From Flavobacteriales bacterium (lineage in GTDB: Bacteria > Bacteroidota > Bacteroidia > M30B66): a stretch of DNA of 64,000 nucleotides. The notes beneath the pieces are model-generated. The model had not been told where the DNA came from and did no database searches. It saw nothing but the letters and a program-made list of their open reading frames with translations. This document shows, one piece after another, positions 1 to 59,630 of this stretch. Each line of letters opens with the position of its first letter. Within the stretch, counting starts at the first letter, position 1. Where the stretch lies: contig JBIPLZ010000421.1 in NCBI GenBank assembly GCA_044369395.1, forward strand, positions 24,847 through 88,846, in the 5' to 3' direction. Position numbers and translations under genes: made by a program.

Positions 1-45
1 ACAATGCACTACTAACTTTAAAAGATGTAGAGTGGTGTAAAAACA

Positions 46-3000
46 TTAGAAGTTTTGTCCGTATACAGTTCCGTAGGTATTTGTACCGTCTTGGAAGAAA
101 GAAAAGATGTCAATCTTTCCAGCAACACTAGTTGCTGTGGGGGTAGTTCCACCTACCCACTTTAAGGTTGAAGGGCTGCTCCATGTTAATGTGTTTACTG
201 CACCGTACACTACTATTACAACAAAGGACTTACCCGCTGTAGAAGCAGGGAGTGTTAGTGTCATGTTTGCATTGGTGGTAAACTTTTGAATGGTTCCGTT
301 AGAAAGGTTTAAGGTGAAGGCAGATCCTGTGCCTGCATCGTAAAGCGTTTCGGTGTAGTTAGTAAAAGTAGGATTAATAAGCGTACCTGTCCATGCGGTT
401 GCGTAATCGGTTGCACTACTTTTTACCAAAAACTGGTTAGTTGTTCCCCCTGCTGGAACTCCCGTAGCAAGCGTTGCTGTAGAACCTTGTACCCACTGGG
501 AGGAAGTACCATCGTTGACATAGGTGTAGATGATGCCTGTGTTGGTGTCGTACCATTGGTTTCCCGCAGTTGGGGAAGCAGGGGCTGTTGCAGAAGTTGT
601 TACCGAACTACCAGCAGTTACAGTAGACCATGAAGGAGCAGATGTTCCATTTGATTGTAATACTTGCCCCGCTGTTCCAGCAGCAAGAAAACTAGTTGCA
701 CCAGATGCTGTGTTGTAAGGAACTTGACCAGCTCCACCGCCAGCGAGACTAGTTGCAGTTGATGCGTTCCCTGTTAACGCTGCGGTGATAGTGCCAGCAG
801 AAAAGTTTCCAGAAGCATCCCTGCGTACTATAGTGCTAACTGTATTTGCAGTAGCCGTGGAATAACTTTCGAGCAAGGAAGCGTTTAAGTTAGCAACCTG
901 TGTGGTTGATGTTACAGTAATCGGTGCTGTGCCAATAGCTACGGTAGAACTTAGAGTTTCGCCAGTAATTTTTTTGTTTGCAGAAAAACTACCATCACCA
1001 GTCAAACTGGCTATATTAGTCGTTCCGCCATAAAATCTAAATGCTCGGTCTGAAGTCGCTGCTGGTATGGAAAACCATAATGAATTAAGTTGAACACCAG
1101 CAGCGTAATCAGTAGATGATGCACCAAGGTCTTTATAAAAAACAACTTTTGTACCAACACTTCGAGTTGTAAATGTTGGTGCACCGTATCCGTTTGTCCC
1201 TAAATCGATCCAGTTATTAGTCGATCCAGAAAAAGTCAATTGGGCCGAAGTGCTTGAACCAGAACCTCCAAGCGTTATTTTACCAGCACTAAAGTCTCCA
1301 GAAGCATCTCGTTGAACTACATAAGAAGCAGTGTTTGCACTTGTTGCGTTTATTCCGATTGTGCCAGTTCCGGTTATTGTCCCACCTGTTATTGGGGAAG
1401 TGGTTGCAATTGATGTAACTGTTCCAGAGCCTGCCGATGACCAGGATAAGACACCGCTTGCGTTGGTAGATAATACTTGGCCCGCTGTTCCATCTGCTGC
1501 GGGGAGTGTCCAAATTACATTTGAATCAATACTATCTGAGGCTTTAAATCCTACATAGTTTTGTCCGTTGGCATATAGTTCTAAAAAACGAAGCTCGTTC
1601 GTTTTACCAGCAGAAGTTCCAGTTGGGCCTAAGAGTACACTTCCGTTACTACTGATTGTAAAAGCATTGAGAAAATTAGAAAAACCATTTGCAAACACTG
1701 GACTTGAGTACACTTGAGCTTGAAATAAATCTCCTGTTTGACCATTTACCCCTAAGACTGTAATTCCATGCCCAGCAGTTGTTCCTGTTAGAACTCTTAA
1801 AGCATAAGAATTACCTATACCTAAAGAAGTTCCAGCAATAGGTGCAGAGTCTATATGTACAGTTGCTGCTCCTGTCATACCACCCATAGTAGAACCAACT
1901 ACACTATATGTTGGAGCCTGTATTCTAATGCCTTTCGCAAATTGTGCTTGTCCCCAAGCAAAAGATACGGTTCTTGCAAGATTAATATCTATATCAATAC
2001 ATTCAGAACCCGAAGTTAGATTAGTGTGTGCAGGGGCTGTTACAGTAAGACATTTAGATGGTGCTGTATTAGATTGACTTAATGGTGCAATAGTAAGGTT
2101 TCTAGTAGTAGCTGAACCAACTGTAGTTATATTTGTTGAACCATTCCAAGTGGACAGTGCTGTGTTTTCAACATTATTAAGGTTTAAACTTGTTCTGCCT
2201 GTCGCTGCTACTAGGTTTGTTGCCCCACCATCCCACTGAAGCCTTTGAGTGTACGCTGAATCCCAATTTGTTTGGGAAGATGTTGTTGGGATTGAATAAC
2301 CCGAAGTTAATGTTACTGCTAATGTTCCAGTTGTTGTAACAGGTGTTCCGCTTACTGATAAACCTGTTGGAACTGTCATTGCAACAGAAGTTACAGTTCC
2401 AGATCCACCAGCGTTATTATAATCAGAAATTAAAACAGGAGTGTTACTTGCATCTCCAATCCATACTTTTTTATCAATTATGTTTGCTGCAAGCTCACCT
2501 TCTAAAAGAGATGTAGGAGTTGCTGTAGTTGTGCTACTTCTTTTTATTCTTATTGTATTTGGGGTAGGAGTAGGAGTAGGTGTGGGTGTGGGAGTAGGTG
2601 TGGTACACGATCCAACTGTTGTTGTTGGTGCAGGGGTTGTTCCATTACCATAAACAAACCATCCAGTTAAAGGTAGTGTAGTAGAATTACCGGATGCGTA
2701 ATAACCCACACCACCAGAATTATAAAAAAGCCATTCGCTATATTCGCTATCAAAAGAAATTGTTGTAGTAGGGGTTCCCGTTTTTTGATAATTTCCGTTA
2801 GCTAAGATTTCATATGTGCCGTTGTAAGTTGTAGTGCCAGCACCTGCCACGCAAACATTATTTAGGTAGGTGTATAAGGAATTTGCAGAACTTGTGCCGT
2901 TTGCCGTCGTAACTTCAACGCTTGCAGTTCCGGTAGTTCCGGCTGGGGTCGTAGCAGTGATACTTGTTGCACTAACCACATTAACATTAGTCGCAGCAGC

Positions 3001-3411
3001 ACCACCAATAGTAACGGAAGTTGCCCCAGTAAATTTGTACCCTGTTATTGTTATTGACCTATTGCCAACAATAGAACCACTAGTAGGGCTAACAGATGTA
3101 ACAAAAGGTGCAGTTGTACAATCACCGCCAGTTATTGTTGGTGCTGGGGATGCACCAGTAATAACAGACCAAGTTGCTAAAAGTGGATTAGCTTGAAAAG
3201 CATTGCCAGCATAAATAGTGACATTATTTTTTTCAAAAACTAAAGTGTCGCCATCGTAATTCCAATAATATCGTGTAGTTGGAGTTCCAACCTTTTCCCA
3301 CGCATTATTTGTACTATTTAAGGTGTAAACCCCATTTACATCTGGTGTACCAGCACCGGAAACGCAATGTGTATCAGCCACTTTAGAAGCTACCTCCGTC
3401 AATATCCACAC
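46..3411 (-). CDS. long tail fibre protein: N-terminal IPT/TIG-like Ig domain, (PT)n linker, then fibre shaft
   Basis: 1121-aa ORF. The N-terminal ~280 aa contain a TIG/IPT-like beta-sandwich signature (PFVTSVSPTSGSIVGNRSITITGYKFTGATSVTIGG...), followed by the linker TPTPTPTPTPTPTP. Residues NTIRIKRSS...LLEGELAANIID then repeat the N-terminal anchor motif of the neighbouring fibre (MANTIRIKRRS...APAELAYN). The rest is Gly/Thr/Ser-rich with ASGxLSWS and QRDASGxFSAG repeats typical of phage fibre shafts. Confidence 0.65.
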   Translation of the reverse strand: MWILTEVASKVADTHCVSGAGTPDVNGVYTLNSTNNAWEKVGTPTTRYYWNYDGDTLVFEKNNVTIYAGNAFQANPLLATWSVITGASPAPTITGGDCTTAPFVTSVSPTSGSIVGNRSITITGYKFTGATSVTIGGAAATNVNVVSATSITATTPAGTTGTASVEVTTANGTSSANSLYTYLNNVCVAGAGTTTYNGTYEILANGNYQKTGTPTTTISFDSEYSEWLFYNSGGVGYYASGNSTTLPLTGWFVYGNGTTPAPTTTVGSCTTPTPTPTPTPTPTPNTIRIKRSSTTTATPTSLLEGELAANIIDKKVWIGDASNTPVLISDYNNAGGSGTVTSVAMTVPTGLSVSGTPVTTTGTLAVTLTSGYSIPTTSSQTNWDSAYTQRLQWDGGATNLVAATGRTSLNLNNVENTALSTWNGSTNITTVGSATTRNLTIAPLSQSNTAPSKCLTVTAPAHTNLTSGSECIDIDINLARTVSFAWGQAQFAKGIRIQAPTYSVVGSTMGGMTGAATVHIDSAPIAGTSLGIGNSYALRVLTGTTAGHGITVLGVNGQTGDLFQAQVYSSPVFANGFSNFLNAFTISSNGSVLLGPTGTSAGKTNELRFLELYANGQNYVGFKASDSIDSNVIWTLPAADGTAGQVLSTNASGVLSWSSAGSGTVTSIATTSPITGGTITGTGTIGINATSANTASYVVQRDASGDFSAGKITLGGSGSSTSAQLTFSGSTNNWIDLGTNGYGAPTFTTRSVGTKVVFYKDLGASSTDYAAGVQLNSLWFSIPAATSDRAFRFYGGTTNIASLTGDGSFSANKKITGETLSSTVAIGTAPITVTSTTQVANLNASLLESYSTATANTVSTIVRRDASGNFSAGTITAALTGNASTATSLAGGGAGQVPYNTASGATSFLAAGTAGQVLQSNGTSAPSWSTVTAGSSVTTSATAPASPTAGNQWYDTNTGIIYTYVNDGTSSQWVQGSTATLATGVPAGGTTNQFLVKSSATDYATAWTGTLINPTFTNYTETLYDAGTGSAFTLNLSNGTIQKFTTNANMTLTLPASTAGKSFVVIVVYGAVNTLTWSSPSTLKWVGGTTPTATSVAGKIDIFSFFQDGTNTYGTVYGQNF

Positions 3412-4579
3412 CGTTGATTGCCGTTGCAGAAAGAACGGTTGTGCCGTTAATCTTTAAAACTTTGCCAGAAGCAAGGTCTAAGTTCTCGCTGCTAGTCCAC
3501 GAAGATGTAGTCGATATCCATGTGAATAACTTATCAGTTAATCCTTTAAGGGTTAAACCCCCATTGTTTGCCCCTGCATCGGTAGTAGACCCTGTTGCAA
3601 GCTCAATGTTTTTATCCGAAACAGTTAATGTGGTTGAGCTAATTGTAGTTATTGAACCTTGAACTTCTAAAGAGCCAGTCACTACTACATTTCCAGATAC
3701 AGTTCCACCAGAACTTGAAAGGTAAGATAAAGGTGGGACATCTGCTGCCGTTAAAGCTCTAAAAGCTGGGATTGCATTTGCACCAGAAGTTGGACCCATA
3801 AGCATGGTATTCATAGCTTGAGCGTTGAATGTAAGACTAATGTTTCCAGAAGTCGTTACGGGCGAAAATCCAACAGTAATGATACTTTGAAGCGGTGCAG
3901 TAATTCCTACGCTAGTTACAGTTCCAGCATTCGGTGTAATATATTCCACATCTGTACCACCGCTATTAACAGCAAGAACTTTGCCACCGTTACTTGTGTA
4001 TGCGGGAAGTAGGTTTGTTCTTGCTGAAGATGCTGTTGTTGCTCCTGTTCCACCTTGTGCTACGGTAAGAGCGGTGGTTAATCCCGTAATAGATGTTATG
4101 TCTGAGTTTGCTCCGCTTGATGCTGCGGATAAGTTTGATCGAGCACCAGATGCAGTTGTAGATCCAGTACCACCTTGAGCTACGCTTAATGCAGTAGTTA
4201 ATCCGGTTAAAGAAGTAATGTCACTGTTAGAACCAGAAGCAGCAGCACCAAGGTTGGTTCTAGCTGACGAAGCTGAAGAAGCTCCCGTACCACCATCAGC
4301 TACAGCAAGGTCAGTGATACCAGAAATAGAACCACCTGTGATGGTGATGTTAGAAAAAGTTTTTGATGCAGAAATTGTTTGAGTAGTTCCCGTGGTCATA
4401 AACGCACCAGAACCAGCTACTGAAACAATAGATGAAGAGTTGCCAGAACCGCCATCACCAAACCCGTAGTAAAGGGTATTGTCGTTTTCGTTATATGCAA
4501 GCTCGGCAGGGGCTAAAGTTGCTGGTGCTCCGGAAGCCCCTGCTGCTGATCTTCTTTTAATGCGAATTGTATTAGCCAT
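3383..4579 (-). CDS. tail fibre protein with tandem ~40-aa AQGGTG...ARSNL repeats
   Basis: 398-aa ORF starting MANTIRIKRRS (conserved fibre N-terminus). It has three tandem copies of ITSLTGLTTALxVAQGGTGxTTASxARxNL. It is adjacent to the collagen-like ORF and the long fibre. Confidence 0.65.
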   Translation of the reverse strand: MANTIRIKRRSAAGASGAPATLAPAELAYNENDNTLYYGFGDGGSGNSSSIVSVAGSGAFMTTGTTQTISASKTFSNITITGGSISGITDLAVADGGTGASSASSARTNLGAAASGSNSDITSLTGLTTALSVAQGGTGSTTASGARSNLSAASSGANSDITSITGLTTALTVAQGGTGATTASSARTNLLPAYTSNGGKVLAVNSGGTDVEYITPNAGTVTSVGITAPLQSIITVGFSPVTTSGNISLTFNAQAMNTMLMGPTSGANAIPAFRALTAADVPPLSYLSSSGGTVSGNVVVTGSLEVQGSITTISSTTLTVSDKNIELATGSTTDAGANNGGLTLKGLTDKLFTWISTTSSWTSSENLDLASGKVLKINGTTVLSATAINGVDIDGGSF

Positions 4580-4603
4580 GGTCAGGAGTCCTTTAGGTTA
4601 AAA

Positions 4604-4843
4604 TTAATAGTTACCGCCGTCAATTGTTTCGGTGTTTACATTAGTCCAAGTCGTACCGTTGTACTTTAAAAATTGGTTGTTAACAGGGCCGATTATATTG
4701 ACATCGCTCATAAGAGCTAGGTTTCCAGAAAGGCCCGGAGGGCCTTGCGGGCCTTGGGTTCCGGTTTGAGATACGGTCAATTGGGTTGTTTGTGTGTTGA
4801 CAGTTACTAGTGTTGTTTGTGGGGTAATAATAATGTCTGGCAT
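4604..4843 (-). CDS. small collagen-like (G-x-y) fibre-associated protein
   Basis: 79-aa ORF with GTQGPQGPPGLSG collagen-type triplets. Its stop overlaps the upstream start as ATGA. It lies within the fibre cluster. Confidence 0.45.
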   Translation of the reverse strand: MPDIIITPQTTLVTVNTQTTQLTVSQTGTQGPQGPPGLSGNLALMSDVNIIGPVNNQFLKYNGTTWTNVNTETIDGGNY

Positions 4844-5190
4844 TAGCGAGTTACCTCCGGTGAAACGACTGCTTCTCCTTGTATCATTCGGGTAACAAAG
4901 CCCGATGCAGATACAGTCTCTAAATCGTAAACATAGGTTTTAGCGATAAGAGCTGCTGTTGTTGATGCGGATAGAAGGAGTCTTACCACACCAGTAAGAG
5001 GGATAATAACTATTCGGCCGTTTTCAGTAGTTAGCTCTACGATAACTTCGGGGGCAGTGTAAGAAGTTCGTAACTGCATACGGGCGGTGTACCCCGTAAG
5101 GTTGACGGGAGTTCCGTCTGCGTTCTTAAAGGCAATCTCTAGAGAAAGATTGGAGCCTTGGTTGATGTTAAGTTCATATATTTCAGCCAT
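4843..5190 (-). CDS. hypothetical virion/tail protein
   Basis: 115-aa ORF in the tail module, translationally coupled to the collagen-like ORF. Confidence 0.3.
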   Translation of the reverse strand: MAEIYELNINQGSNLSLEIAFKNADGTPVNLTGYTARMQLRTSYTAPEVIVELTTENGRIVIIPLTGVVRLLLSASTTAALIAKTYVYDLETVSASGFVTRMIQGEAVVSPEVTR

Positions 5191-5204
5191 AATGCACCTT
5201 TAAG

Positions 5205-5275
5205 GCTAGGATAAGTAGGATTATACATCAAAAAAACGCATGGATCTAGAGTAAAGCGAGAGATTATACAGTTTC
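5205..5275 (-). promoter_or_regulatory. two TGTATAAT extended -10-like boxes between tail genes (minus-strand orientation)
   Basis: Minus strand reads ACTGTATAATCTC and GATGTATAATCCT within 60 nt. Confidence 0.25.
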
Positions 5276-5277
5276 TA

Positions 5278-6534
5278 TTAGGTCATCCAAACGTTAGTTT
5301 TTCCGTCTCTTGACGCATATTCGTAATTTTTAAATAACAAAGAAAAATCTTTGTATTTGTAAACAGTATTTCCGGGTACAGCTCCTGGAGGTAAAATATT
5401 AGTTACGTTGTCGTAAGCTTCTATAGGTGGAAAACCGTTATGGGTTATAAGTTTATAACTTTGACTTCCTTGTAAAACTCTAGCAACAGCACCGGGAAGT
5501 TTTAAATTAGTATCTTTAGAAACTGGAAAATGTTGTAAAAACCAATTATGACCTCTAGGTTCTGTAGTAGGCTGACTTGTATTAACTGCCCCCGGCTCAG
5601 GATCAAAAAACTTCATTTTAAAAGTGATGTCATAAAGACGTTGATCTTCTAACCATCGATAAGGTTTTAACTCTACATTAGTAAGAAGTAATTGACCTTT
5701 TTTTGCACCAAGTGCATCCCAATCATATAAATTTACAGAGCCAATATGTGTTTTAATTGCTGCTGGAATACCGGGAACTTTGTGATGTATTACAACAATT
5801 TCAGAAGCACTTACTATTTTACCCTGAGCTCCTTGAACCATAATACCTACTGGCTCTTTTGTTTTAGCATCTAACAGCGGAAGTCCGTTTTTATCAAACT
5901 CTACCCACTTGTAAGCACCAAAAGGTAAGGATAAAAATTCTGCGGTTGGTTGTTTAAATACAGTAGTAAATTGAGATAATTGATACTCATCTGGTGATAC
6001 AGATTGTGATCCAATAAGTGGTTCTACTCGATAAGTAACTGATTCATAATTAATAGTTATTCTTGCTATGTCATAATAAGATGTTTGTAGTTTTGATCCA
6101 CTGCCTAAACTGTCATATAATATTTGTTGACCTAAACATTCAATGCTTTCTAGTCCAGTAGCAACCATAAAACTTTTTGCTGCTCCACCATTTGGACCAC
6201 CGTTTGATCCGTAGTATACATAATATTGATCGGGTTTTTCTCTTACTATTGTGTTGTCTGTAGGTGTTCCATCAATTGTTGCTGTTCCAAGCATGTATTT
6301 TATAAAAACCCATCTTTGTGGATAAGGAACATCAAAAGTTCTACGAGCACGAAACGTATCACCAGTGTATGACTCTTGTGGAGATCCTGGTCTTTCGTAA
6401 TAAGTTACAGCTTCTGTTCTTGGTTCTGCGGGTGTATTTGGAAAAGCAGAAGCCACTTTATAATTAATAATTGCAACTGACATTTTAAACTCCTTAAGAG
6501 GATGCGCCCATAGGTATTTTGTTTTCTCGAACAC
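5278..6534 (-). CDS. hypothetical distal tail/baseplate protein (probable true start at 6483)
   Basis: 418-aa ORF directly downstream of the tape-measure-like gene. An internal Met (MSVAIINYK) at 6483 is preceded by AAGGAG on the minus strand and removes the overlap with the giant gene. Confidence 0.4.
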   Translation of the reverse strand: MFEKTKYLWAHPLKEFKMSVAIINYKVASAFPNTPAEPRTEAVTYYERPGSPQESYTGDTFRARRTFDVPYPQRWVFIKYMLGTATIDGTPTDNTIVREKPDQYYVYYGSNGGPNGGAAKSFMVATGLESIECLGQQILYDSLGSGSKLQTSYYDIARITINYESVTYRVEPLIGSQSVSPDEYQLSQFTTVFKQPTAEFLSLPFGAYKWVEFDKNGLPLLDAKTKEPVGIMVQGAQGKIVSASEIVVIHHKVPGIPAAIKTHIGSVNLYDWDALGAKKGQLLLTNVELKPYRWLEDQRLYDITFKMKFFDPEPGAVNTSQPTTEPRGHNWFLQHFPVSKDTNLKLPGAVARVLQGSQSYKLITHNGFPPIEAYDNVTNILPPGAVPGNTVYKYKDFSLLFKNYEYASRDGKTNVWMT

Positions 6535-9500
6535 CCTCGTTTACTTTTTCAAGCTCTTTAAGCATGTTTATTAAACCGTGCTCATTCATTTTTTTCAATT
6601 CTGCTGTCATAGGATCATCACCAAGAGCCGATACTTGGATTTTTTTGTATGCTTCTTCTACAGAAGAATAAGAAGATTGTGACTTAGAACTTTGATATGC
6701 CATTGATAATTGTTGTTTAGAATCATTAGCAGGCAATGGTTTTCCGTTAGCATCTTTTTCATTTCTTCGTTTATCACCAAAAGCTAAATTTGAAGTTCCA
6801 CTTGCAATCTTACTTCCACCCCAAGATCCCAGTGCTCCACCTATTAAACCGCCTACAGCACCACCCACCGCAGTTCCAAGAGGTCCTACTAAAGAGCCAA
6901 GTGCAGCACCTGCCCAAGCACCACCCATAGCACCTGCTAAAGCACCACCGCCTGCACCAGCTACTTGAGCTCCTGTGCGTACAACATTTTCTCCACCACT
7001 CATACTTTTAATGTCAGCGTTTTCCATTCCTTCAGAAACACCACCTACAATGCCAGAAAGAATTCCACCTGTCATAGCAGCTCCACCACCTCCAGCTAAT
7101 AGTTTTGCTAAAAACCCAGTAGTTTTTGCACCAGTGGTACTGGCTGCTCCAGCCGTTGCTGCACTTGCCCCCGCTTTAGCAGCTCCCGCTGTAGCAGCAC
7201 CTGCTCCCGCAGTAGCAGCACCTGCACCTGCGGTAGCGGTAGCAGCACCTGCTGCTACTGGAGATACTGGAGGAACGGCTGCTCCTCTTCTTAGCATTAA
7301 AGAACTTGCTAATAAAGCTGCTCGAAAGAATGCAAATCCGTTTATTAAAAGAGATACACCCGATACAAGGGCTCCAAAGAAAGCAATCGCAGGAAGAACG
7401 GCTGCTCCTAAAAGTGCAATGCCTACGCCAAGAGCTAGGAATTTTCCATCTAAAACGCTGTTAACAAGACTGGAAAACATGCTAAACAATCTTCCAGCCG
7501 TTCCCGTACCGTTCATTATTTCCCTTGCCCACGTTTGAATTATTTGTGAAGCTCTAAGAAATACGGGAATTAAAGCCATGCCTACCGCACCCGATAAAAG
7601 CTTAATCGATCCGGTAAACGTAGCAAAAGTATCAGGAGATGCGTTAGCAGTCATACCACTCATGCTTTGACTAAAGCTTTGAATCTTTGCACTAGCTTCG
7701 GTAAGGTTTGATACAAAAGCTCCAAATCTTGTGTTTTTAACAAAATCGTTTAGCTTGTCTTTAAATGGGCCCATTATATCGCCGGAAGAGTAACTACCAC
7801 CAGAAGGTCTGGTAATAGTTGCACTTCCCCCACCAACCACACCGCCCCTTGCCATATGAGAAACACCGCGTTTTTTGTAAGCCCCTAACGCTGCCATCAT
7901 GTAAGGCACATCTTTTTTGGCGGTTATGTATTCTCCCTCTTGTGCCCAAACAGGAGTTTGATCTAAACCTTTAGGCTTTCCAGGAAATGAGTTTTTACCT
8001 CCTACAAATCCACCTAGAAAATGATGTTCTGGCCGTCTTCCACTTCCAGCTTCTGGATCAACAGCAGGTTTGTTTTTTATTAAATCATTTAATATTTCTG
8101 TTAAAGCTTGTAGTTCTTGTTTGAGTTTTTCTATAGCATCTGCACTAGCTTCAATTGCTTTTTTTTGTTTTTCAACTGCTATATCAATGTCTGCATCTGA
8201 AATTTCTGCACCGCTCATTTTTTGAGCTTGCAGTTCTTTTTCTAAATCTTCCGGAGATTTCATATTCTCTAGATCATATTTTTGAGCTTCTTTTATTTCT
8301 ATTTCATTTCTTTTTTCTTTTATTTCGGGAGTGTCTGTAGCATCTTCTTTTTGTTTACTTCTTTCTTTTTGTCGATGTTTTTTTTCTTCTTCTCTTTCCT
8401 CAAATCGTTCAGCTCTTTCAGTATTAAAACGATTAACTAAAAGACCTCCACCTAGTTTACCTAAAAATCCCCCTATAAGAGATCCAATAATTCCTCCTAT
8501 AGGTCCAACTGCTGCTGTACCAAATGAAACACCAACCGCAGCGCCAAAAGCTGCACCCATAACACCTATACTTGTTTCAGCTTGAGGAAGAACTTTTGAA
8601 GGTTTATCATCTGCGGTGTTTTCTATATATTTAATTTCGTACTCAGGGTATTTTTTCTGAATTTGTTGAAAGGCTTCTTCTTCACTACTTGCGTATTCGT
8701 GACCTTCTTTTTCACGAGTAAAATCATTTACGTCTTTATTTGGATTAATTATGTTGTAGTAAAATTCTTTTTCTTTAGAATCATCTTCGGGTTTATTGTT
8801 TTCTAGTTCTTCATATACAGGCGGTTTATTTGATTTAGTTATTTTAGTAAGAGCATATCCTAGTTCTTTAACTTTTTGTTGAGCTTCTTCTTCTGAACTA
8901 GCATTAATAGAATCTTTAACTTCTGTGCCTGTAGAATCCATTGCTTCGTAGTCATATCTAAACTTTGATTTTTTTTCTTTTGTTTCTTCTGTATTAGGAA
9001 TTGCATTAACAATAGAATCTACGTCAATAGTGTCGTGATCTTCGTAAGCATTTCCACTGTAACGGTTAAGAGTTTCGGCTAATACTTCTGCCCAACCTGC
9101 TGGTACTTCTTCTCTAAATCGAGGAATAGCTTGTTTAGATTCTGCATTAATCTTTGTTGTAGCTTCTTCTTTTTTTTCTTCTTGTTTTTCTTCTTTTGTT
9201 ACGTCTGGATTTTTAGTAACTTCTGGTTTTGTATCCTTAGCATCTTCTGTTGTTGCATCACTAGGTTCTGAAATAATTAACGGTTCGTCATCATCTTTTT
9301 TTACTTCGGTAGTTGTTTCAGCGGTGCTGCGTTTAATATCATTAAGTCGGTTTAATTGATTTTGAACAATAACCAGATTGGCTCTAGCGATCTTTTGAAA
9401 GATCGGGTTTGCCATTGTCTTAAGATAAGCTTCTATTTTTTTCTGTTCTTGTTCTAAAGATCCTCTTCCGCTTTCATCTATTCTTTTAACTGCGGTAGGA

Positions 9501-12500
9501 TTTAATGGTTTTACTTCTTTATCTAAATCGCCTCTGTCTGCACCCGTAAAGTTGTCAACTTCTTTTTGAAGTAAATAAGCAACAGTAGCAGGGTCAAAGT
9601 TAGAGGTCTTATCTTTAAATGCTTGATCTCCAGACAAAGAGTGACCCATTAATGCTGCAAGAATCATATGGGAGTTTAATCCCCCAGATCGACCTATCAA
9701 TCCATCAACAGCAGACATACCGTTAAACGCTCCATGATTTTTTTCAAGTTGAGCATTTACTTGTGGAGTTTGCATTAACTCCATAGGTACTTGTATTTGT
9801 GAAGCAGCACTACCGTATAGATCGCCATCTCCCATTTTTCTAGGAACAAATTTAGCTGCTTTATTAGAAGGACGTGCTGGCTCTTTTGTTGGTTCGGAAA
9901 CAATTTCTGGTTCGACTACTGGTGCAGCATTTTCAATGCTTTTGTCATAAGCAGCTTGAGCATTTTTAAGTTCTTCTTCTGCGTTTTCAAAAGCTAAAAT
10001 TTCAGCAGGCGGTTGATTTTCTCTTAATAAAAATGCACGATCTTTTAATTTTTTTTCTTTTTCAAAAGCTATTCGTGCATTAACTAAATCTGCTTTTAAA
10101 TTTTTATTTTTGGGTTTTAAAGGATTTCTATCTGTAGGTTTTATTTTTGGAGTTTCAGCAATGTCGGGGTCAACATCTCCACTTTTAGCGTGTCGAGTAT
10201 CAATTTCATTAGCATTTTCATCGTATCGATAATAACTTCCATTTTCTCCTATATATACTAAATCACTATTTATATTTTTAGATATTGTTCCAGGGATTCC
10301 GGGTTTGAAATTTTTTCTTCTTTCTATTTCAGAATTGATTGTATTTCTTTTTTCTTGTTCTTCTAAAGTATATCCCTCTTCTGATGGCTTCATTTCATCA
10401 AGAACATCCTTGAGTGTTTGAAAACCCCAGTGTTTAATCATTTCTGTAAAATTTGAATATTCGTCAGACTGCTCATTTGTTGGTAAACTTATTGGTTTTT
10501 CTGGTGGTACTACTGGTTTAATAATTGAAGGACGTGGCTCGGGATTTAAATCAATCGGTGGAGTTTTAGGGGTGATACTAATAGTAGGATCAGCGTGTCC
10601 TGTTACACCAAAGCTTGTATGAATTTTGCCATCTTGATAAAGATACTGTAATCCATTCTCTCCAGTATAAACTTCTTCGTTATCTTTATTTTTAGATAAA
10701 GTTCCAGGAATGCCAGGTTTAAAATTGTCTCTTCTTTCTATTTCTTTATCTACGTTAGCGTTATCTTCAATTTCAAAATCTTGCCAATTTGGACTTCCAT
10801 CTGAGTTGTAACCTTTTCTAGGTTCTCGAAATTCTTGCTGTTCTTTTAATTCAGAATACCTATAGTCTAGAAAACGATTTTTCTTTGGTGCTGTTGCTGA
10901 AGAAGTAGTTTCTGGTGCTAATTCTATTTCTAATTCAGCTATAGCTTTATCTATCTCTTTGATTTCGTCTTCGCTTAATGGAGGAGCAGTTGCAACTTTA
11001 GGTTTTGATTTTGCAACATCTTTTGGTGTATTGTTTTCTTTTTCTTTTTTCTTTTTATTTAAAACTCTAAATAACGTTGCTCCCGCTACTCCAGCAGTTC
11101 CTAAAGCAAGAGCTATTAATCTTCCAAAATTTGAACTAGGCTTTTCTTTTGGATTTTCTGAAACCTCTGGGGTTGCTATTTCAGACTCCATTGGAGAAGG
11201 AGTAGGTGCTGGGGATGGAGGTTGGTTTAAAGTGTTGTTTGGAGTTTGTATGTCTCCCGAAGCTTCAACGTCTTTAATGTGTGCTTCTTTTTGAGCACGG
11301 GAAAACTTTCTCCATTTACTAGGATCAATAGATTTTTTAGAAAACAAACCTTTTTTTAAACGAGCAGCTCCTTTCATTAAAGAAAGAGGTTTTTCATTTC
11401 CTTCTATATCTGCAACATGAAGATGACCTTCAGCAGCAAGTTTTTCAGTTAGAGATTCACCGTCTACTAAAATGTCCCCAAGAAGTCGTTGATATTTATC
11501 TAACTTTGGTTTTCCTTCACTATCTACTAAAACTTTTGCTTCAATTTTTTTTGCATTAGCTAATATATTTCTTGCTGCATCTTCTGCTTCTCGTCCACCT
11601 GGCTGATCAAGTTCTCCTGGTCCATGAGCAACTTCCGGAGCATCTCCTTTATTAAGTCTTAATTTACCTTTACCCGTGTCATAAGTATCAGCATCTTTAA
11701 TAAGATTACTAGTAAGAGGATTTTTAACGTTCATTGGAAACGTTACGTATTTTTCTTCTTTTATAGAAGCCGGTTTTTTATTTGTTGAGGTAGGTTTTGA
11801 ATTTACCGGAATAGTAGGTAAAGATAAAGCAGGGGTTGGTTTAGCCGTAGGAGCTGTAGAATAAAACGGAGCTTGTGACCCTGATATAATACTGTCAGGT
11901 GGAACATTTGTTGAGCCTTTAATTCCAACTTTAGGAGCATTAGGATTAGTAGATCGTAACAATGGCGGGTTATTTTTACTGGATTGTTCAATTGCTGATG
12001 GTATAGCTACAATAGTATCTACAACATTTTTAACTATGTTATCAAGATTTTTTTGAGGATCTTCGGGTTTAGGTTCTAAAGGCAGTATTCCACCTTGGCT
12101 GTAAAGACCTCCAGCAGCTAACCAAGCTTGTTCTTTTTTATCTTTTTCTTCTTTTTCTTTTTGATTTTTTTCTTCTAAAGCTGCTGTTTCCTCAGCCGTC
12201 GGTGGAGGGCCTGCAAGTTGTGCTGCTTTTGCATCTTCTTTTTGTTTCTTAAGTGCTGCTACTCTAGCAGCTTCTTTTTCTTTTTCCGCACGGATTTGTT
12301 TAATATCTTCAACAGCAGAAGATGGTTTAGCAGCTTCTTCTGCTTTTCTTTCACGGTCTGCATAAATACTTAACTCTGCTGCATTTGGACTTTTATCTTT
12401 ACGACGATCTTCAATTCCTTTTTGGAAAAAGTTTTCACGGGCTCTTGGGTCGCCTATTACACTTCCTTCAACACCGTTATTTTTATTTACAAATCCCGCG

Positions 12501-15500
12501 GCTCTTTCGTCTTCTAATGTTCCAGCCCCTGCCATAGAAGCCATTAACATTGGAACAATAGCTGCTGCTAACATTGGTCCAGATAAAGAGTTTTTAATTG
12601 CAGCTACAATAGAATATTTAAAATCACCTGCGGGAAGGTTTTGATCTTTTAATCCAGAGACATCATGGCCTGCAATACCTTTTAAAACGGCTGCAAGAAG
12701 TTCTTCAAAAGAAGATAAGTATTTGCCAGAGTCAAAAGCACCTGCTAAATCTCCCGATTTCTGGTTGCTAATTGCTCCGTATGCACCTTGAAGCTCTCCT
12801 CTAGCTTGAGCTAAGTCGGCTCCTTCTGCAAATAAAGCGGGTATCTTATTAGAAAGACCATGAATAAAAGCTTCTTCCATAATTAAAGCTATTACTTTGG
12901 CTCTTGCTTCAGCATCATTTCCTAAAATAGCAGCGTCAGGAATTGCAAGAGTAAGTGATTGTTTTAAGTTATCACCTTCACCTTTTGTTCCTACACGACC
13001 TTGATATTCTCCATCTTTTCCTTTTATGCTTTCACTACGAGATATTTTTATTTTGTCAAATATTTTGTAGATGTTTATGCCCATTTCATTTGAAATGGTT
13101 TTTAATAGGTTTTTTACCCCTTCAACATAAGAAGCATCAGTGACAACTTTATTACCTTTATTTATTCTTAATTCTGCATCGCCTTCTTTTTGATTGATGT
13201 TTTGTATGCTTGAATCTTTTCCGGAATAAAACTTTTTGATAATAGAAGAAACTGTTTCAACAACAGATATTAAATTTTTATCTGGAGTTTTACCAGAGTC
13301 GTTAGCTAGGTTTTTTACTATGCTTGAAACGTTTTCGCTAGGGGGTGTAATTGAACTTTTAAGTTTTTGAAATTGAGAAGCTAACGCTCTAAATATTTGA
13401 TCTTGAATTTCAGTATCAACACTTGCGTCATGTGCTGTACCTTCTGTAATTATTCCAAAAGCTTCTTTTTGAACTTCAATTGTAAATATTGTTTTTCCAT
13501 CTTCAGAAGCTTCTTGTTGTTTTATAGAATCAACAATACCTGATCTGTTTTCTTTTTCTTCTCTTTTTTTTGCTTGATCTAAAGCAATTTTTGTAAGCTT
13601 TGTCTGAAGATCAGAAGTTTTAAAATGTTTTTTTTCTATTTCTATTAATTGTTTAATTATGTAATCAGTGTTTACATTTGCATATGAAGCGGAACCTATT
13701 TCATTTTTTCTTTTATCAACATTTCCAACAATTTTTAACATTGCATTTTTTATTTCGTCATTATTAGCATTAGCTAAATCGTCTTCATATGTTCCTTTTC
13801 GATTAATTGTTGCTGTAGGATCTTTCTCTAACATTTCTGCAATTTTATCTGTTATACGTTTTGCAGCATTTTCTGGAGTTAAAGTATTTCCAGCGTCATC
13901 TTCTTTAAGATACGTTTCATTAAAATCTTTAAATTTTGGGTCTTTGTTTAAATCGAGAGTTTCATCTGCCTTAATAAAAATGTTTAAAGGTTCAACTAAA
14001 TTTTTTCCTAAAGCATCTTTCATAATCATGCTTAATTGAACAATCTGAGCTTCAATTGCATGATTTTCAGAATTAACAGGGGCTGTTGGCGGTGATACTG
14101 TCTCAGCATCTATTGTTATTACATTTTTATTTTTAAACAGATTTCCAATATTGTTTAAATCTAAAAGTATTGAAGATAAGTTTTCATTTGAATCAGAATT
14201 AGAGTCGGAGTCATTATTAGCGTCTATAAGCTTAGTAACTAAATTTTCTGTCTCTAATGTTTTTTGACCTCTTGCTAACGCTTCTTGTGTGCTTTGGGTT
14301 AATGTTGAAACAGGAGCAGATGTATTAGTTGCAGAAGCATCTTTTACTCCATAAACTGAATCTCTTGCATCTTGTTTTTTTTGTCTTCTTGTTTTAAAAA
14401 GATTATCTTTGTTATCAATACCAGCAGCAATTAATGCAAGCTCGGCATCTTTAAACCACTTTTCTATTCCAAGTCGTTCTAAATAATAATTTTTAAGCTG
14501 TTCTAGTTTTTTAAGATACCAGTTATTTTCTTCTGGAGGTTCAATCTTTGCTATTTCTTCTTTAGACAAACCTTTTATTTTTTCTTGATATTCTTTTTCT
14601 GCTACATCATCTTTTTCTTTTTGTCTTTTTTGACGAGGAGAAAGATCCGCATTTTTAATTGCTGCCATAGCTTTTTTATGAGCAGCAGTTACGTTTTCTT
14701 TTTCAGTTAAATAGTTAACATAAGACCGTAAAGGTTTTTGATAATGCTCCCCAAATTTGTTGATGTCTTCAGCTAAAGAGTCGGGTTGATCTAAAAAGCT
14801 TTCGTAAGTTCTCTTATTAAAAGGCTCTAACGGCTTTTCATCATTTTTGTGATTATCTTTGTTAGTTTGCCGTATTGCTTCTAATCTTTCTTGATGGGCT
14901 CGATACTCTATTTCTTTGGCAACTAAATACTCAACGTAGTTGTTTAGAGCACCAGCAGATTCTGTTTGTTCTTTTTTATAAGTATTTACAGCGTTTGCTT
15001 GTTTATAAGCATCAACATTCCCTGGCATGGGAAAGTCTTGTTTTCTTTGTACATCTTTTTCTTCTTTTTTCTTTTCATTTGCTATTCGTTTAGCATCTTG
15101 AAATTTTTCGTATAGCTCAGATTTTGTTTCTAAAAAAGCTTTGTACTTTGCTAAATTTTCTTGATTCCTTTTTACTTCATTAGCATTTCGTTCTGCTACT
15201 ACTTGCTTGCTTTCGTTATAAGATTTTGTCCATTGAGCTTTCTTTTTTAAATATTCAAGGTGTTTTTTTTCACTCTCAGCGTCTTTTGGGCTGGAAACTT
15301 TTGGATCTTCATTAAACGCTTTGGTCCATTGAGCTTTCTTTTTTAAATACTCAATATGATCTCGTTGATCTTGAGTCATACCACTACTGTCAACAGCTTC
15401 TCGTTTAGCTTTTTCTTCTTCGTAAAATTTTGTAGATGCTTCAGATTTCCTTTTAAGCATTTTTACGTAATCAGCTAATATTTCGTCATCGTTAAGAGTG

Positions 15501-42645: not shown

Positions 42646-43548
42646 ATGAAAGTAGTAGACTTATTTGCAGGAGCTGGAGGCTTTAGCACCGGAGCAGTAC
42701 AAGCTGGGTGTGAAGTTGTATGGGCTGCTAACCACTGGAAAGATGCGGTGCATGTACATGAGTGCAATCACCCCAAGACTTTCCACAGTTGTCAAGACTT
42801 ACAGCAAGCAGACTTTACTACCTTGCCACAGTACGATGTTCTGTTAGCCAGCCCCTCTTGCCAAGGGCATAGCAAAGCTCGGGGAGCGGATCAACCAAGA
42901 CATGATGCAGCAAGGAGTACAGCATGGGCTGTTGTTGCCTGCGTTGAAACCACCAGGCCCAAAGCTTTTGTAGTAGAGAATGTCACAGAGTTTTTAAGCT
43001 GGGAACTATTCCCACAATGGAAAGGCTGCATGGAAAAGCTTGGATATAACTTAGCTTCCAACATATTAAACGCTGCTGACTTTGGTGTGGCTCAATCTAG
43101 GATAAGAGTTTTTATTACCGGATCTAAAGCTCAACCTTTACAAGTTCAAACAAACCCATTTAAAAAACACATACCTTTTAAAGACTTAATTGAAGACGGG
43201 GATTATAAGTGGTCAACCGTTTCTGATAAAGCTGATAGCACTAAAAGAAAATGGGCTAACGGAATTAAAGACCACGGAGATAATTTCTTAATTGCCTACT
43301 ACGGATCTGAACGTGGGGGTAGAAGTATTAAGAAGCCCCTTGGAACAATAACCACGAAGGAAAAGTTTGCTCTTATCAATAGGGATAAGATGCGAATGCT
43401 TTCTTTGAGTGAATACAAAAACGCTATGGGATTCCCAGAAAAATACCTATTGCCTAAAAGCAAGAGCCTAGCACTTCACATGCTGGGCAATGCAGTCTGC
43501 CCTCCCGTTGCAAAAGAGATCCTAACCCAAATGAAAGAGTGTATTTAA
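42646..43548 (+). CDS. DNA (cytosine-5) methyltransferase
   Basis: Motif I DLFAGAGGFSTG, motif IV SPSCQGHS, motif VI ENV, motif VIII QSRIR. Confidence 0.8.
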   Translation: MKVVDLFAGAGGFSTGAVQAGCEVVWAANHWKDAVHVHECNHPKTFHSCQDLQQADFTTLPQYDVLLASPSCQGHSKARGADQPRHDAARSTAWAVVACVETTRPKAFVVENVTEFLSWELFPQWKGCMEKLGYNLASNILNAADFGVAQSRIRVFITGSKAQPLQVQTNPFKKHIPFKDLIEDGDYKWSTVSDKADSTKRKWANGIKDHGDNFLIAYYGSERGGRSIKKPLGTITTKEKFALINRDKMRMLSLSEYKNAMGFPEKYLLPKSKSLALHMLGNAVCPPVAKEILTQMKECI

Positions 43549-56972: not shown

Positions 56973-57578
56973 TTATTTGGTTGTGGTTGCAGGGGTTGCA
57001 GATCCAGTTGATCCAAATCCTCCGGCTGCACGAGCAGTAGTATCAAGCGTTGCAGCATCTACAAAGTTAAAGAAGCCGCAGGGCAAAATTATTACCTGTG
57101 CAATACGATCACCAGCTTTATAGGTGAAGGGTTCTTTACCCATGTTGGTAAGCATGATTACAATTTCACCACGGTAATCAGTATCAATCACACCGCCAGT
57201 AATAACTAAGCCTTGTGCAGCAAGAGAAGATCTATCACGAATTAAACCAAAGAGTCCTGTAGGGAGTTCAAACCCTACTCCCGTATTTATTTTTTTAGCA
57301 ATTTCTCCGGGCTGAATAACACCATCTTCACAAGAAGAAAGATCAAAGCCTGCATCTGAAGCATACGTTTTAAATGGAGCTTTAGCTGTTAATGAAAACA
57401 GTTTGTATTTAAGAGGAGGCGGTCCTTGGTTTTGTCCACTTTGCATATTAGGATTCATTCCCGGCATCATAGGGTTCATACCCTGCATGTTAGGATTCAT
57501 CCCGCCCATCATCGGATTAAAGTTTGGATTCATATTAGGGTTCATATTAGGGTTCATACCACCAGTAAATGCACTCAT
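56973..57578 (-). CDS. dut: dUTPase (trimeric) with MNPN-repeat N-terminal extension
   Basis: Motifs ASDAGFDL, RDRSSLAAQG, GVIDTDYRGEI, GDRIAQVIILP. The N-terminal ~45 aa are (MNPN)n / GMNPNMQ repeats. Confidence 0.85.
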   Translation of the reverse strand: MSAFTGGMNPNMNPNMNPNFNPMMGGMNPNMQGMNPMMPGMNPNMQSGQNQGPPPLKYKLFSLTAKAPFKTYASDAGFDLSSCEDGVIQPGEIAKKINTGVGFELPTGLFGLIRDRSSLAAQGLVITGGVIDTDYRGEIVIMLTNMGKEPFTYKAGDRIAQVIILPCGFFNFVDAATLDTTARAAGGFGSTGSATPATTTK

Positions 57579-59542: not shown

Positions 59543-59559
59543 AGGATTCCTTCCTGTTG

Positions 59560-59600: not shown

Positions 59601-59630
59601 TTTTCGGAATTGTTCTTATTTTTATTTGAA

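What the first reader, a model, noticed from the sequence alone, without database searches (positions are those of the whole stretch)
46..4579. Modular tail fibres: an IPT/TIG domain and (PT)7 linker grafted onto a fibre that re-uses the neighbouring fibre's N-terminal anchor motif internally
The 398-aa fibre starts MANTIRIKRRS...APAELAYN. The 1121-aa ORF overlaps its start and contains the same motif (NTIRIKRSSTT...LLEGELAANIID) at about residue 280. This comes after an N-terminal Ig-like TIG/IPT module and a TPTPTPTPTPTPTP linker (nt ~2545-2600). So the long fibre looks like a domain fusion in which an extra carbohydrate-binding-like N-terminal domain was added ahead of a canonical fibre anchor, or a gene fusion of two formerly separate ORFs. 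The 398-aa fibre itself carries three ~40-aa AQGGTG...ARSNL tandem repeats. A collagen G-x-y mini-gene (4604-4843) sits between the fibres and the tail body. This is a host-range determinant region with clear evidence of module shuffling.
Basis: seen in the sequence. Interest (0 to 1): 0.55.

Follow-up and report, generated by a model that had tools for sequence, protein, structure and literature searches.

The report
Tail fibre with extra N-terminal modules
Two neighbouring tail-fibre genes of an uncultivated phage share a small domain that normally sits at the very start of such proteins. In the longer fibre a swappable cassette of three small binding-type domains has been added in front of it, which is a clear but fairly ordinary case of module shuffling in host-recognition proteins.

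Summary
The 398-aa fibre (3383-4579, minus strand) begins with the motif NTIRIKR…ELA.N. The long fibre carries the same ~50-aa unit at residue 285. Ahead of it lie a Pfam-significant IPT/TIG domain and a (TP)7 linker.

Three corrections:
- The long fibre most likely starts at GTG 3381 (1111 aa), so the 29-nt overlap is an ORF-calling artefact.
- The TIG domain is flanked by two copies of an uncharacterised ~85-aa cysteine-bracketed beta domain, here called "CxxGAG".
- The fibre-1 repeats number 2.5, and the "collagen" mini-gene has only four G-x-y triplets.

Comparative data support domain accretion. The motif family is very large (15,656 cluster representatives). It begins at residue 3-10 in 133 of the 150 best hits. 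Syntenic ~100-kb relatives carry no extension, one CxxGAG domain, or a beta-helix plus TIG at the same junction. No separate ORF or internal start was found there.

The most likely function is an optional, flexibly tethered accessory adhesin cassette on a mosaic trimeric fibre. This function is inferred, not shown. I rate it a new variant of a known kind (Ig-like/CBM decoration of phage tail proteins), of moderate interest.

The parts
46..3381 (-). Fibre 2 CDS. Most likely start is GTG 3381, giving 1111 aa. The mechanical ORF call extends to 3411.
   Evidence: ORF list. Junction comparison with eight related loci, and GGAGG 11 nt upstream. Homologues sit on ~100-kb contigs in the same gene order.
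3109..3375 (-). CxxGAG domain copy 1 (residues 13-101 in 1121-aa numbering). An uncharacterised small beta domain bracketed by two cysteines.
   Evidence: Alignment A2 of 14 copies has invariant A8, G9, N14, G15, Y17, Y54, W68, P79 and T80. No Pfam hit.
2866..3108 (-). IPT/TIG (Ig-like) domain, residues 102-182.
   Evidence: Pfam PF01833, E = 1.2e-14, 54.5 bits against cut-off 20.9. 52-72% identical to the TIG domain of P0001 and P0003.
2605..2862 (-). CxxGAG domain copy 2, residues 184-269.
2560..2604 (-). (TP)7 low-complexity linker, residues 270-284.
   Evidence: Sequence, TRF. Relatives have (TP)3-4, poly-T or no linker at the same point.
2404..2559 (-). Internal copy of the N-terminal-type 'anchor' domain, residues 285-336 (NTIRIKRSSTT…GELAANIIDKKVWIG…VLISDY).
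   Evidence: A profile of 18 copies (A1) finds 15,656 cluster representatives; 133 of the best 150 start at residue 3-10. AlphaFold2 pLDDT 91.8, four strands. hhalign to a verified Mtd_N sequence: probability 70%, E = 4e-5.
445..2403 (-). Mosaic shaft of fibre 2, residues 337-989.
   Evidence: Segment-wise identity to different homologues: P0049 80-87% (residues 301-400), P0004/P0003 90-96% (601-650), P0005 94-96% (701-850). P0010 is 93% identical over residues 667-937.
49..444 (-). C-terminal (distal) domain of fibre 2, residues 990-1121, ending …TVYGQNF.
   Evidence: 94-100% identical to P0001 and 92-100% to P0007 over this part. Shared by relatives whose N-terminal parts differ.
3383..4579 (-). 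Fibre 1 CDS (398 aa). N-terminal anchor unit, repeat region, conserved C-terminus …VDIDGGSF.
   Evidence: PHROG tail-fibre families, best E = 3.4e-18. 91% identical to fibre 1 of L013 and 58-77% to six other loci. IMG/VR holds at least 510 related loci.
4430..4573 (-). Anchor unit of fibre 1, residues 3-50.
   Evidence: Aligns with the fibre-2 unit, 37% identity over 52 aa with all invariant columns kept. Score is above the shuffle distribution.
4010..4303 (-). 2.5 tandem 40-aa repeats …[DQ]GGTG..tAs.AR.NL…NSDITS.TGLTTAL.V, residues 93-190.
   Evidence: Matches the same repeat in solved tail fibres 7z47_D (E = 1.8e-9) and 8vbx_R (E = 2e-8), and annotated tail-fibre genes of E. coli phages such as SU10 at DNA level.
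3386..3403 (-). C-terminal motif IDGGSF of fibre 1. Its DGG codons (GACGGAGGT) also supply the Shine-Dalgarno-like GGAGG for fibre 2.
   Evidence: 63 of 63 distinct complete fibre-1-like genes in an IMG/VR sample end in [DN][GC]Gx[FY]. The junctions are conserved.
4604..4843 (-). 79-aa mini-fibre/adaptor gene. Four G-x-y triplets (nt 4724-4762) and a C-terminus …NQFLKYNGTTWTN…ETIDGGNY.
   Evidence: Weak PHROG tail-fibre hit, E = 0.003. No Pfam Collagen hit.
4843..5190 (-). 115-aa conserved neighbour (phrog_1084; phrog_3304, 'L-shaped tail fiber protein assembly').
   Evidence: Present with the same length in L001, L004 and L013.

Best explanation
Fibre 2 is a mosaic tail fibre, presumably trimeric. 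Its conserved ~50-aa N-terminal-type beta domain (the 'anchor', distantly Mtd_N-like) normally begins at residue 3. Here it has acquired an in-frame, exchangeable 270-residue cassette in front of it: CxxGAG domain, IPT/TIG domain, CxxGAG domain, joined by a flexible (TP)7 tether.

The fibre is translated as one polypeptide from GTG 3381, coupled to the stop codon of fibre 1.

The anchor and the body of the fibre assemble as in relatives that lack the cassette. The cassette is therefore optional for assembly. It most likely acts as three flexibly tethered accessory adhesin arms per trimer, adding weak or secondary binding to the host surface next to the C-terminal receptor-binding end.

Shown: the architecture, the canonical N-terminal position of the anchor, cassette swapping between close relatives, and the absence of an internal start.

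Inferred: trimer formation, the docking role of the anchor, and the adhesin function.
For: - Domain map: TIG E = 1.2e-14; two CxxGAG copies that fold confidently (pLDDT 92.4); the anchor unit folds as a compact four-strand domain (pLDDT 91.8).
- The anchor family has 15,656 cluster representatives. 133 of the best 150 begin at residue 3-10. The 17 internal cases, at residues 88-1292, include 14 of the 20 best-scoring hits, i.e. this sub-family.
- In an IMG/VR sample of 63 distinct fibre-1-like genes, the next gene carries the anchor in 42 of 60. It is N-terminal in 40. Only one (L040) has a true extension.
- Syntenic relatives with conserved flanking genes differ only in the cassette. L001 has none, L003 one CxxGAG, L004 and L013 beta-helix + TIG. 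L013 fibre 1 is 91% identical to the window's.
- DNA homology breaks at about 3346-3377 and resumes at about 2562-2586.
- P0001 shares the anchor and proximal shaft (76-90%) and the C-terminus (94-100%), but has a different extension.
- There is no in-frame ATG/GTG/TTG between residues 235 and 285. Promoter-like sites are not above chance.
- Extension modules in relatives are of the binding/enzymatic type: up to 7 TIG domains and parallel beta-helix.
- Short proteins consist only of extension, linker, anchor and IDGGTF: P0151, P0210 and seven IMG/VR proteins.
- CxxGAG also occurs at C-termini (L016, L028) and in stand-alone small proteins, as expected of a portable binding module.
- A pattern scan of one genome from each of 185,579 bacterial and archaeal species found it in one locus only.
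Against: - No experiment or structure shows that the unit docks on the virion or that the cassette binds anything.
- The anchor unit can occur twice in one protein (P0130, P0137). It occurs in three or four consecutive genes of one phage (L009, L010). Both fit a general trimerisation or joining unit at least as well as a single baseplate anchor.
- The top-150 list is biased towards the sub-family from which the profile was built.
Confidence: 0.65

Rival explanations
1. Gene fusion. The cassette was an independent small gene between fibre 1 and fibre 2, and it became fused in frame to fibre 2 through loss of a stop codon.
For: - Stand-alone proteins built on a CxxGAG domain exist: P0122 (162 aa) and P0125-P0128 (104-120 aa).
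- In L007 and L008, P0122 sits directly after a fibre gene with a stop/start overlap.
Against: - In the syntenic relatives examined (L001, L003, L004/L005, L013) and in other backgrounds (L006, L009, L010, L014), no separate ORF lies between the fibre pair. The extension is either absent or already in frame.
- P0122 does not carry the anchor. It carries a different N-terminal-type motif after its own poly-T linker, so it is another graft and not a precursor.
Confidence: 0.12
2. The NTIRIKR unit is not a virion anchor. It is a portable trimerisation or segment-joining unit. It plugs into the conserved C-terminal […][ILV]DGGx[FY] end of the preceding gene product, so the fibres are assembled head to tail in gene order. 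The N-terminal cassette would then sprout sideways from the joint between fibre 1 and fibre 2.
For: - 63 of 63 fibre-1-like genes end in [DN][GC]Gx[FY]. The next gene carries the unit in 42 of 60.
- Stop-to-start gaps range from -1 to 71 nt, so the motif is not conserved merely as an RBS.
- In L009 and L010, four consecutive genes carry the unit. Three end in DGGxF, and the last carries the Collar-type tip instead.
- In the window, the 79-aa protein ends IDGGNY, fibre 1 ends IDGGSF and fibre 2 does not.
- Minimal extension-anchor-IDGGTF proteins look like pure joints.
Against: - The evidence is gene order and motif co-occurrence only, and many of the loci are related by descent.
- 18 of 60 DGGxF genes are followed by a gene without a detectable unit.
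- Proteins ending NNFGGL are followed by a 148-aa protein without the unit.
Confidence: 0.2
3. Annotation artefact. The real fibre 2 starts near the motif, and the upstream 'extension' is untranslated or is a separate product.
For: - The motif is N-terminal in most family members.
- The mechanical ORF call picked a start (GTG 3411) that is probably wrong.
Against: - There is no in-frame start codon between residues 235 and 285.
- The frame stays open through the three domains.
- The TIG domain scores far above the Pfam cut-off. The CxxGAG domains are conserved at protein level and fold confidently.
- 17 independent cluster representatives keep an extension and the anchor in one frame.
Confidence: 0.03

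Closest known systems
Ig-like / carbohydrate-binding-module decorations of phage structural proteins. Examples: Fraser et al. 2006, 'Ig-like domains on bacteriophages' (from my own knowledge; listed as ref. 72 in PMC6949934); BACON repeats in crAssphage gp64 (PMC6949934); CBMs decorating lactococcal 936 phages (PMC6669499, title seen in the reference list of PMC6949934).
   Same: Small Ig-like or beta-sandwich modules are appended to tail proteins. They are variable between close relatives and dispensable for the core structure. They are thought to give accessory binding to host-surface glycans. [quoted passage not shown]
   Different: Here the modules sit in front of a domain that is otherwise at the extreme N-terminus, not at the C-terminus or inside the protein. 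The Ig-like type is IPT/TIG. The accompanying CxxGAG domain is in neither Pfam nor the PDB.
Anchor-branch multi-RBP systems of Klebsiella podophages, with a conserved N-terminal docking peptide or anchor domain (PMC6872550; PMC13352976; PMC12692247).
   Same: Several receptor-binding proteins in one virion, encoded side by side, share a short conserved N-terminal element that mediates attachment. The distal parts are freely exchanged (abstracts seen).
   Different: There is no sequence relationship. In those systems the docking element is at the N-terminus, and no cargo in front of it has been described as far as I know. Attachment has been shown experimentally there and not here.
Mtd_N (PF18454, N-terminal domain of the Bordetella phage BPP-1 major tropism determinant) and the N-terminal cap of the streptococcal phage hyaluronidase HylP1 (PDB 2c3f).
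   Different: Pfam's Mtd_N model does not hit the window's units even at E <= 10. The structural scores are too weak to prove homology. No DGR reverse-transcriptase domain was seen among the 10 larger ORFs scanned; this was not an exhaustive check.
Repeat-containing tail fibres of phage SU10 (PDB 7z47) and gp47 (PDB 8vbx).
   Same: The 40-aa repeat of fibre 1 (…NSDITSLTGLTT.LS..QGGTG…AR.NLG) matches these solved fibres, with E = 1.8e-9 and 2e-8. It also matches annotated tail-fibre genes of E. coli phages such as SU10 at DNA level.
   Different: Only the repeat is shared. The N-terminal unit and the C-terminal IDGGSF end are not found in any PDB sequence.

Membership tests
IPT/TIG domain (Pfam PF01833) | Match to the family HMM above the curated gathering score. 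| tested here: met
   54.5 bits against cut-off 20.9, E = 1.2e-14, residues 102-182 covering profile positions 1-84 of 84.
Mtd_N (Pfam PF18454) | Match to the family HMM above the gathering score. | tested here: not met
   No hit at E <= 10 for the fibre-1 unit, the fibre-2 unit or the P0007 unit. The positive control (L006 512-aa protein) scores E = 6.7e-16.
Mtd_N (Pfam PF18454) | Remote homology detectable by profile comparison or by fold. | tested here: inconclusive
Phage tail fibre (generic) | Encoded in the tail/baseplate module, with sequence similarity to known fibre proteins. | tested here: met
   Gene order is portal - protease - capsid - adaptor … giant protein - small proteins - fibres. 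Fibre 1 hits PHROG tail-fibre families and solved tail fibres 7z47 and 8vbx. Fibre-2 homologues carry Collar domains and other fibre tips.
Phage tail fibre (generic) | Homotrimeric fibre incorporated in the virion through its N-terminal part. | not testable with these tools
   Only monomer predictions were possible. No virion data.
Collagen triple-helix repeat (Pfam PF01391), for the 79-aa mini-gene | A long uninterrupted run of G-x-y triplets matching the family HMM. | tested here: not met
   No Pfam hit at E <= 0.1. Only GTQ-GPQ-GPP-GLS, four triplets. Relatives have three or four.
Accessory Ig-like/CBM decoration of phage virions | The module is dispensable: close relatives with the same core protein lack it or carry another. 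| tested here: met
   L001/P0007 has no extension. L003, L004 and L013 carry other modules, with conserved flanking genes.
Accessory Ig-like/CBM decoration of phage virions | The module binds host-surface carbohydrate or another surface ligand. | not testable with these tools
   No informative structural neighbour for CxxGAG. The TIG fold alone does not predict a ligand.
Fusion of two formerly separate genes | Relatives carry the two parts as adjacent separate ORFs at the same locus. | tested here: not met
   None of the nine related loci examined has a separate ORF between the fibres. Stand-alone CxxGAG proteins exist only in other arrangements.

The most novel reading that the evidence does not exclude
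The ~50-aa NTIRIKR unit and the C-terminal [ILV]DGGx[FY] end may form a widespread 'plug-and-socket' pair. It would let phages chain fibre segments head to tail in gene order. Cargo placed in front of the plug (CxxGAG, TIG, beta-helix) would be displayed at the joints. The minimal extension-anchor-IDGGTF proteins would then be pure joint adaptors carrying adhesins. This would be a natural, modular display scaffold present in hundreds of uncultivated phages.
Probability: 0.2. Interest if true: 0.65.

Novelty: new variant of a known kind. Interest (0 to 1): 0.4.

Why it matters
Tail fibres set host range, and their modularity is what makes phage retargeting possible. This locus and its relatives show that a very common N-terminal fibre domain (more than 15,000 sequence clusters) tolerates large foreign modules in front of it. 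These range from about 85 to about 1,290 residues. Nature swaps these modules between phages whose neighbouring fibre is 91% identical.

This points to a possible engineering site for displaying extra binding or enzymatic domains without touching the receptor-binding tip.

It also defines a small phage-restricted beta domain (CxxGAG) with no Pfam or PDB counterpart. And it documents a conserved gene pair: a fibre ending in DGGx[FY], followed by a gene that starts with the anchor. That pair could guide annotation of tail modules in metagenomic phages.

None of this overturns current ideas about fibre mosaicism.

Tried and rejected
- Nucleotide search of nt 1-8000 against 50,697 GenBank phages found only the fibre-1 repeat, at 65-76% identity.
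- tblastn of the extension plus anchor (335 aa) against the same set found nothing. No cultured phage shows the architecture.
- Pfam on the isolated anchor units and CxxGAG domains gave only noise.
- PDB sequence search with the anchor profile gave only spurious hits to designed repeat proteins.
- Longest-common-substring statistics were useless, because the T/S/G-rich composition gives 7-8-mers by chance in shuffles. I used local alignment and profile searches instead.
- The profile search for CxxGAG homologues in the 5.8-billion-protein set returned only eight small proteins and missed known members, probably because of the word index. It therefore cannot be used for counting.
- TRF did not detect the 40-aa repeats at DNA level.
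- A frameshift fusion of fibre 1 to fibre 2 was considered. The fibre-2 frame is open for only 2-26 codons upstream of the start in relatives, and the junction is a plain stop/start overlap, so I rejected it.
- An internal promoter or terminator was considered. Sites were not above shuffle expectation.
- Rfam found nothing in the window.
- Literature searches for TIG domains in tail fibres, and for the Mtd N-terminal domain, found no paper describing this arrangement.
Full report
**What is in the sequence**

On the minus strand of nt 46-5190 lie four co-oriented genes:
- a 115-aa gene (4843-5190);
- a 79-aa gene (4604-4843);
- a 398-aa gene, 'fibre 1' (3383-4579);
- a long gene, 'fibre 2' (46-3411 as mechanically called, 1121 aa).

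Upstream on the same strand are a 418-aa ORF, a 3134-aa ORF, and a head module with adaptor, HK97-type capsid, protease and portal. The window also encodes TerL, a family-A DNA polymerase, a class II ribonucleotide reductase, a DUF3987 protein and a C5 methylase. There are no tRNAs and no Rfam matches.

The capsid protein is at most 30% identical to that of any GenBank phage. Close relatives sit on metagenomic contigs of 97-100 kb. This is therefore an uncultivated phage of about 100 kb.

**Checking the observation**

Fibre 1 begins MANTIRIKRRS…APAELAYN. Fibre 2 has NTIRIKRSSTT…LLEGELAANIID at residue 285.

- A local alignment of fibre-1 residues 1-50 against fibre 2 picks exactly this place. 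It scores 62, against 36.5 +/- 4.7 in shuffles.
- In an 18-sequence alignment of the unit, fibre 1 keeps all four invariant columns.
- Pfam IPT/TIG covers residues 102-182, E = 1.2e-14.
- The (TP)7 linker is residues 270-284, nt 2560-2604.

Four corrections are needed.

1. *Start codon.* The alignment of the fibre-1/fibre-2 junction in eight related loci shows a conserved stop/start overlap (…GAYGGNGGN NNN TTY TA[A/G]TG GC…). The homologous start in the window is GTG 3381, one base after the TAA of fibre 1, with GGAGG 11 nt upstream. Fibre 2 is therefore 1111 aa, and the 29-nt 'overlap' is an ORF-calling artefact.
2. *Repeats.* Fibre 1 has two full 40-aa repeats (29/40 identical) plus an 18-residue partial third. 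The same repeat occurs in the solved tail fibres 7z47 and 8vbx.
3. *Mini-gene.* The 79-aa gene is conserved in relatives. It has only four G-x-y triplets and no Pfam Collagen hit. Its conserved part is the C-terminus NQFLKYNGTTWTN…IDGGNY.
4. *Missed domains.* The TIG domain is flanked by two copies of an ~85-residue unit, C[VL][SA]GAG…NG.Y…W…PAPT…G.C (residues 13-101 and 184-269).

**The CxxGAG domain**

- Fourteen copies from this and related proteins align with nine invariant positions and two nearly invariant bracketing cysteines.
- AlphaFold2 on that alignment gives an all-beta domain at mean pLDDT 92.4.
- It has no Pfam match.
- A pattern scan found 23 loci in IMG/VR.
- A similar scan found one locus, a MAG contig, among one genome from each of 185,579 bacterial and archaeal species.
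- Besides N-terminal positions, it occurs at the C-terminal end of two other viral proteins (L016, L028) and in stand-alone proteins of 104-162 aa.

It behaves as a portable, phage-restricted module of unknown ligand.

**The 'anchor' unit**

A profile of 18 copies, searched against 1.84 billion cluster representatives, finds 15,656 proteins at E <= 1e-3 and 1,201 at E <= 1e-10.

Of the best 150, 133 have the unit starting at residue 3-10. Seventeen have it internally, at residues 88-1292. These internal cases include 14 of the 20 best-scoring hits, that is, the sub-family closest to fibre 2.

An independent sample gives the same picture. The N-terminus of fibre 1 finds at least 510 loci in IMG/VR, and all 80 best matches begin at an ATG. 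Among 63 distinct complete genes:
- the downstream gene carries the unit in 42 of 60;
- it lies within the first 12 residues in 40;
- one case is a start-codon artefact;
- only one (L040) has a real extension, again a CxxGAG domain.

The unit is thus canonically N-terminal, and an extension in front of it is a rare, derived state.

**Is the extension a graft?**

Four relatives keep the same gene order: giant protein, ~360-400 aa, 115 aa, 67-79 aa, fibre 1, fibre 2. Their fibre 1 is 58-91% identical to the window's. Fibre 2 begins differently in each:

| Locus / protein | What precedes the anchor |
|---|---|
| L001 / P0007 | nothing (anchor at the start) |
| L003 / P0004 | one CxxGAG domain and (TP)4 |
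| L004 / P0003 and L013 / P0049 | a parallel beta-helix plus TIG |
| window | CxxGAG-TIG-CxxGAG-(TP)7 |

DNA homology to these loci ends at the fibre-1 stop (about 3346-3377) and resumes at the linker/anchor (about 2562-2586).

P0001 shares the anchor and proximal shaft (76-90%) and the C-terminal domain (94-100%) with the window's fibre. It has a beta-helix where the window has CxxGAG-1, and it lacks CxxGAG-2.

Other backgrounds go further:
- P0012 has about 1,290 residues before the anchor, with seven TIG domains, two CxxGAG domains and a stretch resembling the beta-helix extensions of P0001 and P0049, which was not confirmed by Pfam. Only about 130 residues follow the anchor.
- P0151, P0210 and seven IMG/VR proteins are nothing but extension, linker, anchor and a C-terminal IDGGTF.

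No locus has a separate ORF between the two fibres. The window has no in-frame start codon between residues 235 and 285 and no promoter signal above chance.

The 'fusion of two ORFs' alternative is not supported at this locus, although stand-alone CxxGAG proteins exist elsewhere (P0122 in L007/L008).

The rest of fibre 2 is also a mosaic. Different segments are 80-100% identical to different homologues, as is usual for tail fibres.

**How it most likely works**

*Shown:* one reading frame; a canonical N-terminal-type domain displaced to residue 285; a cassette of three independently folding small domains on a Pro/Thr tether; and cassette presence, absence or identity varying between phages whose neighbouring genes are conserved.

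*Inferred:* fibre 2 forms a trimer whose anchor unit and shaft assemble as in cassette-less relatives. The cassette is then not needed for incorporation. It would hang as three flexible arms near the proximal end, acting as an accessory adhesin. In relatives with a beta-helix it could be a second binding or enzymatic head. This is the role generally proposed for Ig-like and CBM decorations of phage particles (PMC6949934 and references therein). I give the combined statement a confidence of 0.65. The architectural and evolutionary part is much firmer than the functional part.

**An alternative worth testing**

All 63 fibre-1-like genes end in [DN][GC]Gx[FY]. So do the 79-aa protein and the minimal extension-anchor proteins, whereas the last fibre of each series does not.

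The motif is conserved whether the next start codon is -1 or 71 nt away. It is therefore not just the Shine-Dalgarno sequence that it happens to encode in the window.

In L009 and L010, four consecutive genes carry the anchor unit. Three end in DGGxF, and the last carries a Collar-type tip.

This suggests that the unit may plug into the preceding protein's C-terminus, chaining segments in gene order. The extension would then sit at a joint. The evidence is gene order only, and there are exceptions (18 of 60; NNFGGL-ending proteins are followed by a different 148-aa protein). I rate it at about 0.2.

**Comparison with what is known, and verdict**

Mosaic tail fibres, Ig-like/CBM decorations and shared N-terminal docking elements among multiple receptor-binding proteins are all established. 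The last is documented for the Klebsiella phage anchor-branch systems (PMC6872550, PMC13352976).

What is specific here:
- cargo is placed in front of an otherwise strictly N-terminal domain;
- the IPT/TIG type of Ig-like module is used;
- there is an undescribed CxxGAG domain;
- the fibre-1 (…DGGxF) / anchor-first gene pair is widespread.

I found no cultured phage with this architecture and no paper describing it. I classify it as a new variant of a known kind and score interest at 0.4.

Noticed in passing
window 6494-15898 (minus strand): A 3134-aa ORF has no Pfam family at E <= 0.001. It has long Lys/Glu-rich stretches and a Gly/Ala-rich hydrophobic C-terminal part. Its start region overlaps the 418-aa ORF (5278-6534). 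Counterparts in relatives are 3023-4273 aa. By position it is probably a tape-measure or ejection protein of unusual size.
   Followed up: partly
window 3386-3403; L040-L119 (IMG/VR): The C-terminal motif [ILV][DN]GGx[FY] is universal in the fibre-1 family (63 of 63 distinct genes). It also ends the 79-aa protein (IDGGNY) and the minimal extension-anchor proteins (IDGGTF). A related ending, …FLANNFGG[LF], closes many fibre-2-type proteins.
   Followed up: partly
window 3379-3400; junctions in L001, L003, L004, L006, L009, L010, L013, L014: The fibre-1 stop and fibre-2 start form a conserved TA(A/G)TG-type overlap, which implies translational coupling. The codons for the DGG of the C-terminal motif double as a G-rich Shine-Dalgarno-like element 9-11 nt upstream. 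The window has a 1-nt spacer instead (TAA A GTG).
   Followed up: yes
P0130 (1012 aa), P0137 (223 aa): In some distant family members the anchor unit occurs twice in one protein: once at residue 3 and again about 70-220 residues later. It is therefore not restricted to a single copy per chain.
   Followed up: no
L016 (756-aa ORF), L028 (447-aa ORF): The CxxGAG domain also occurs at the extreme C-terminus of other viral proteins that lack the anchor unit. In L016 there are two copies, the last ending …TITVGACS.
   Followed up: no
L007 1205-1964; L008: A 162-aa stand-alone protein (P0122) has a CxxGAG domain, a T9 linker and a second kind of N-terminal-type motif (P.SP..GQ.Y.FNG..W.WNG), and ends NYGGL. 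It is followed by a 47-aa ORF made of just that motif plus …LANNFGGL. The CxxGAG module has therefore been grafted in front of at least two different 'N-terminal' motifs.
   Followed up: partly
window 2866-3108 and one search hit list: The phage TIG domain is 50-70% identical to single TIG repeats of large bacterial surface proteins (autotransporters, LPXTG proteins) from many phyla. This could reflect capture from bacteria, or simply the consensus-like nature of these repeats.
   Followed up: no
window 4843-5190 and 472-615: The 115-aa protein and residues 933-980 of fibre 2 both hit phrog_3304 ('L-shaped tail fiber protein assembly'), but at different parts of the profile (positions 3-113 and 123-170). 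The meaning is unclear.
   Followed up: no
window 20523-64000: The rest of the window carries the following: an HK97-type capsid, at most 30% identical to cultured phages; a portal; a protease-like 704-aa protein; TerL (52846-54387); a class II RNR (57575-59728); family-A DNA polymerase (59631-61805); a DUF3987 protein (61814-63952); and a C5 cytosine methylase (42646-43548). There are no tRNAs and no Rfam hits. Several ORFs of 650-950 aa have no Pfam match.
   Followed up: partly
L006 (91.5-kb contig), L009/L010 (46.7-kb contig): The fibre-1 / decorated-anchor gene pair occurs in phages with quite different neighbouring tail genes and genome sizes. The pair therefore moves, or is retained, as a unit across lineages.
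   Followed up: partly
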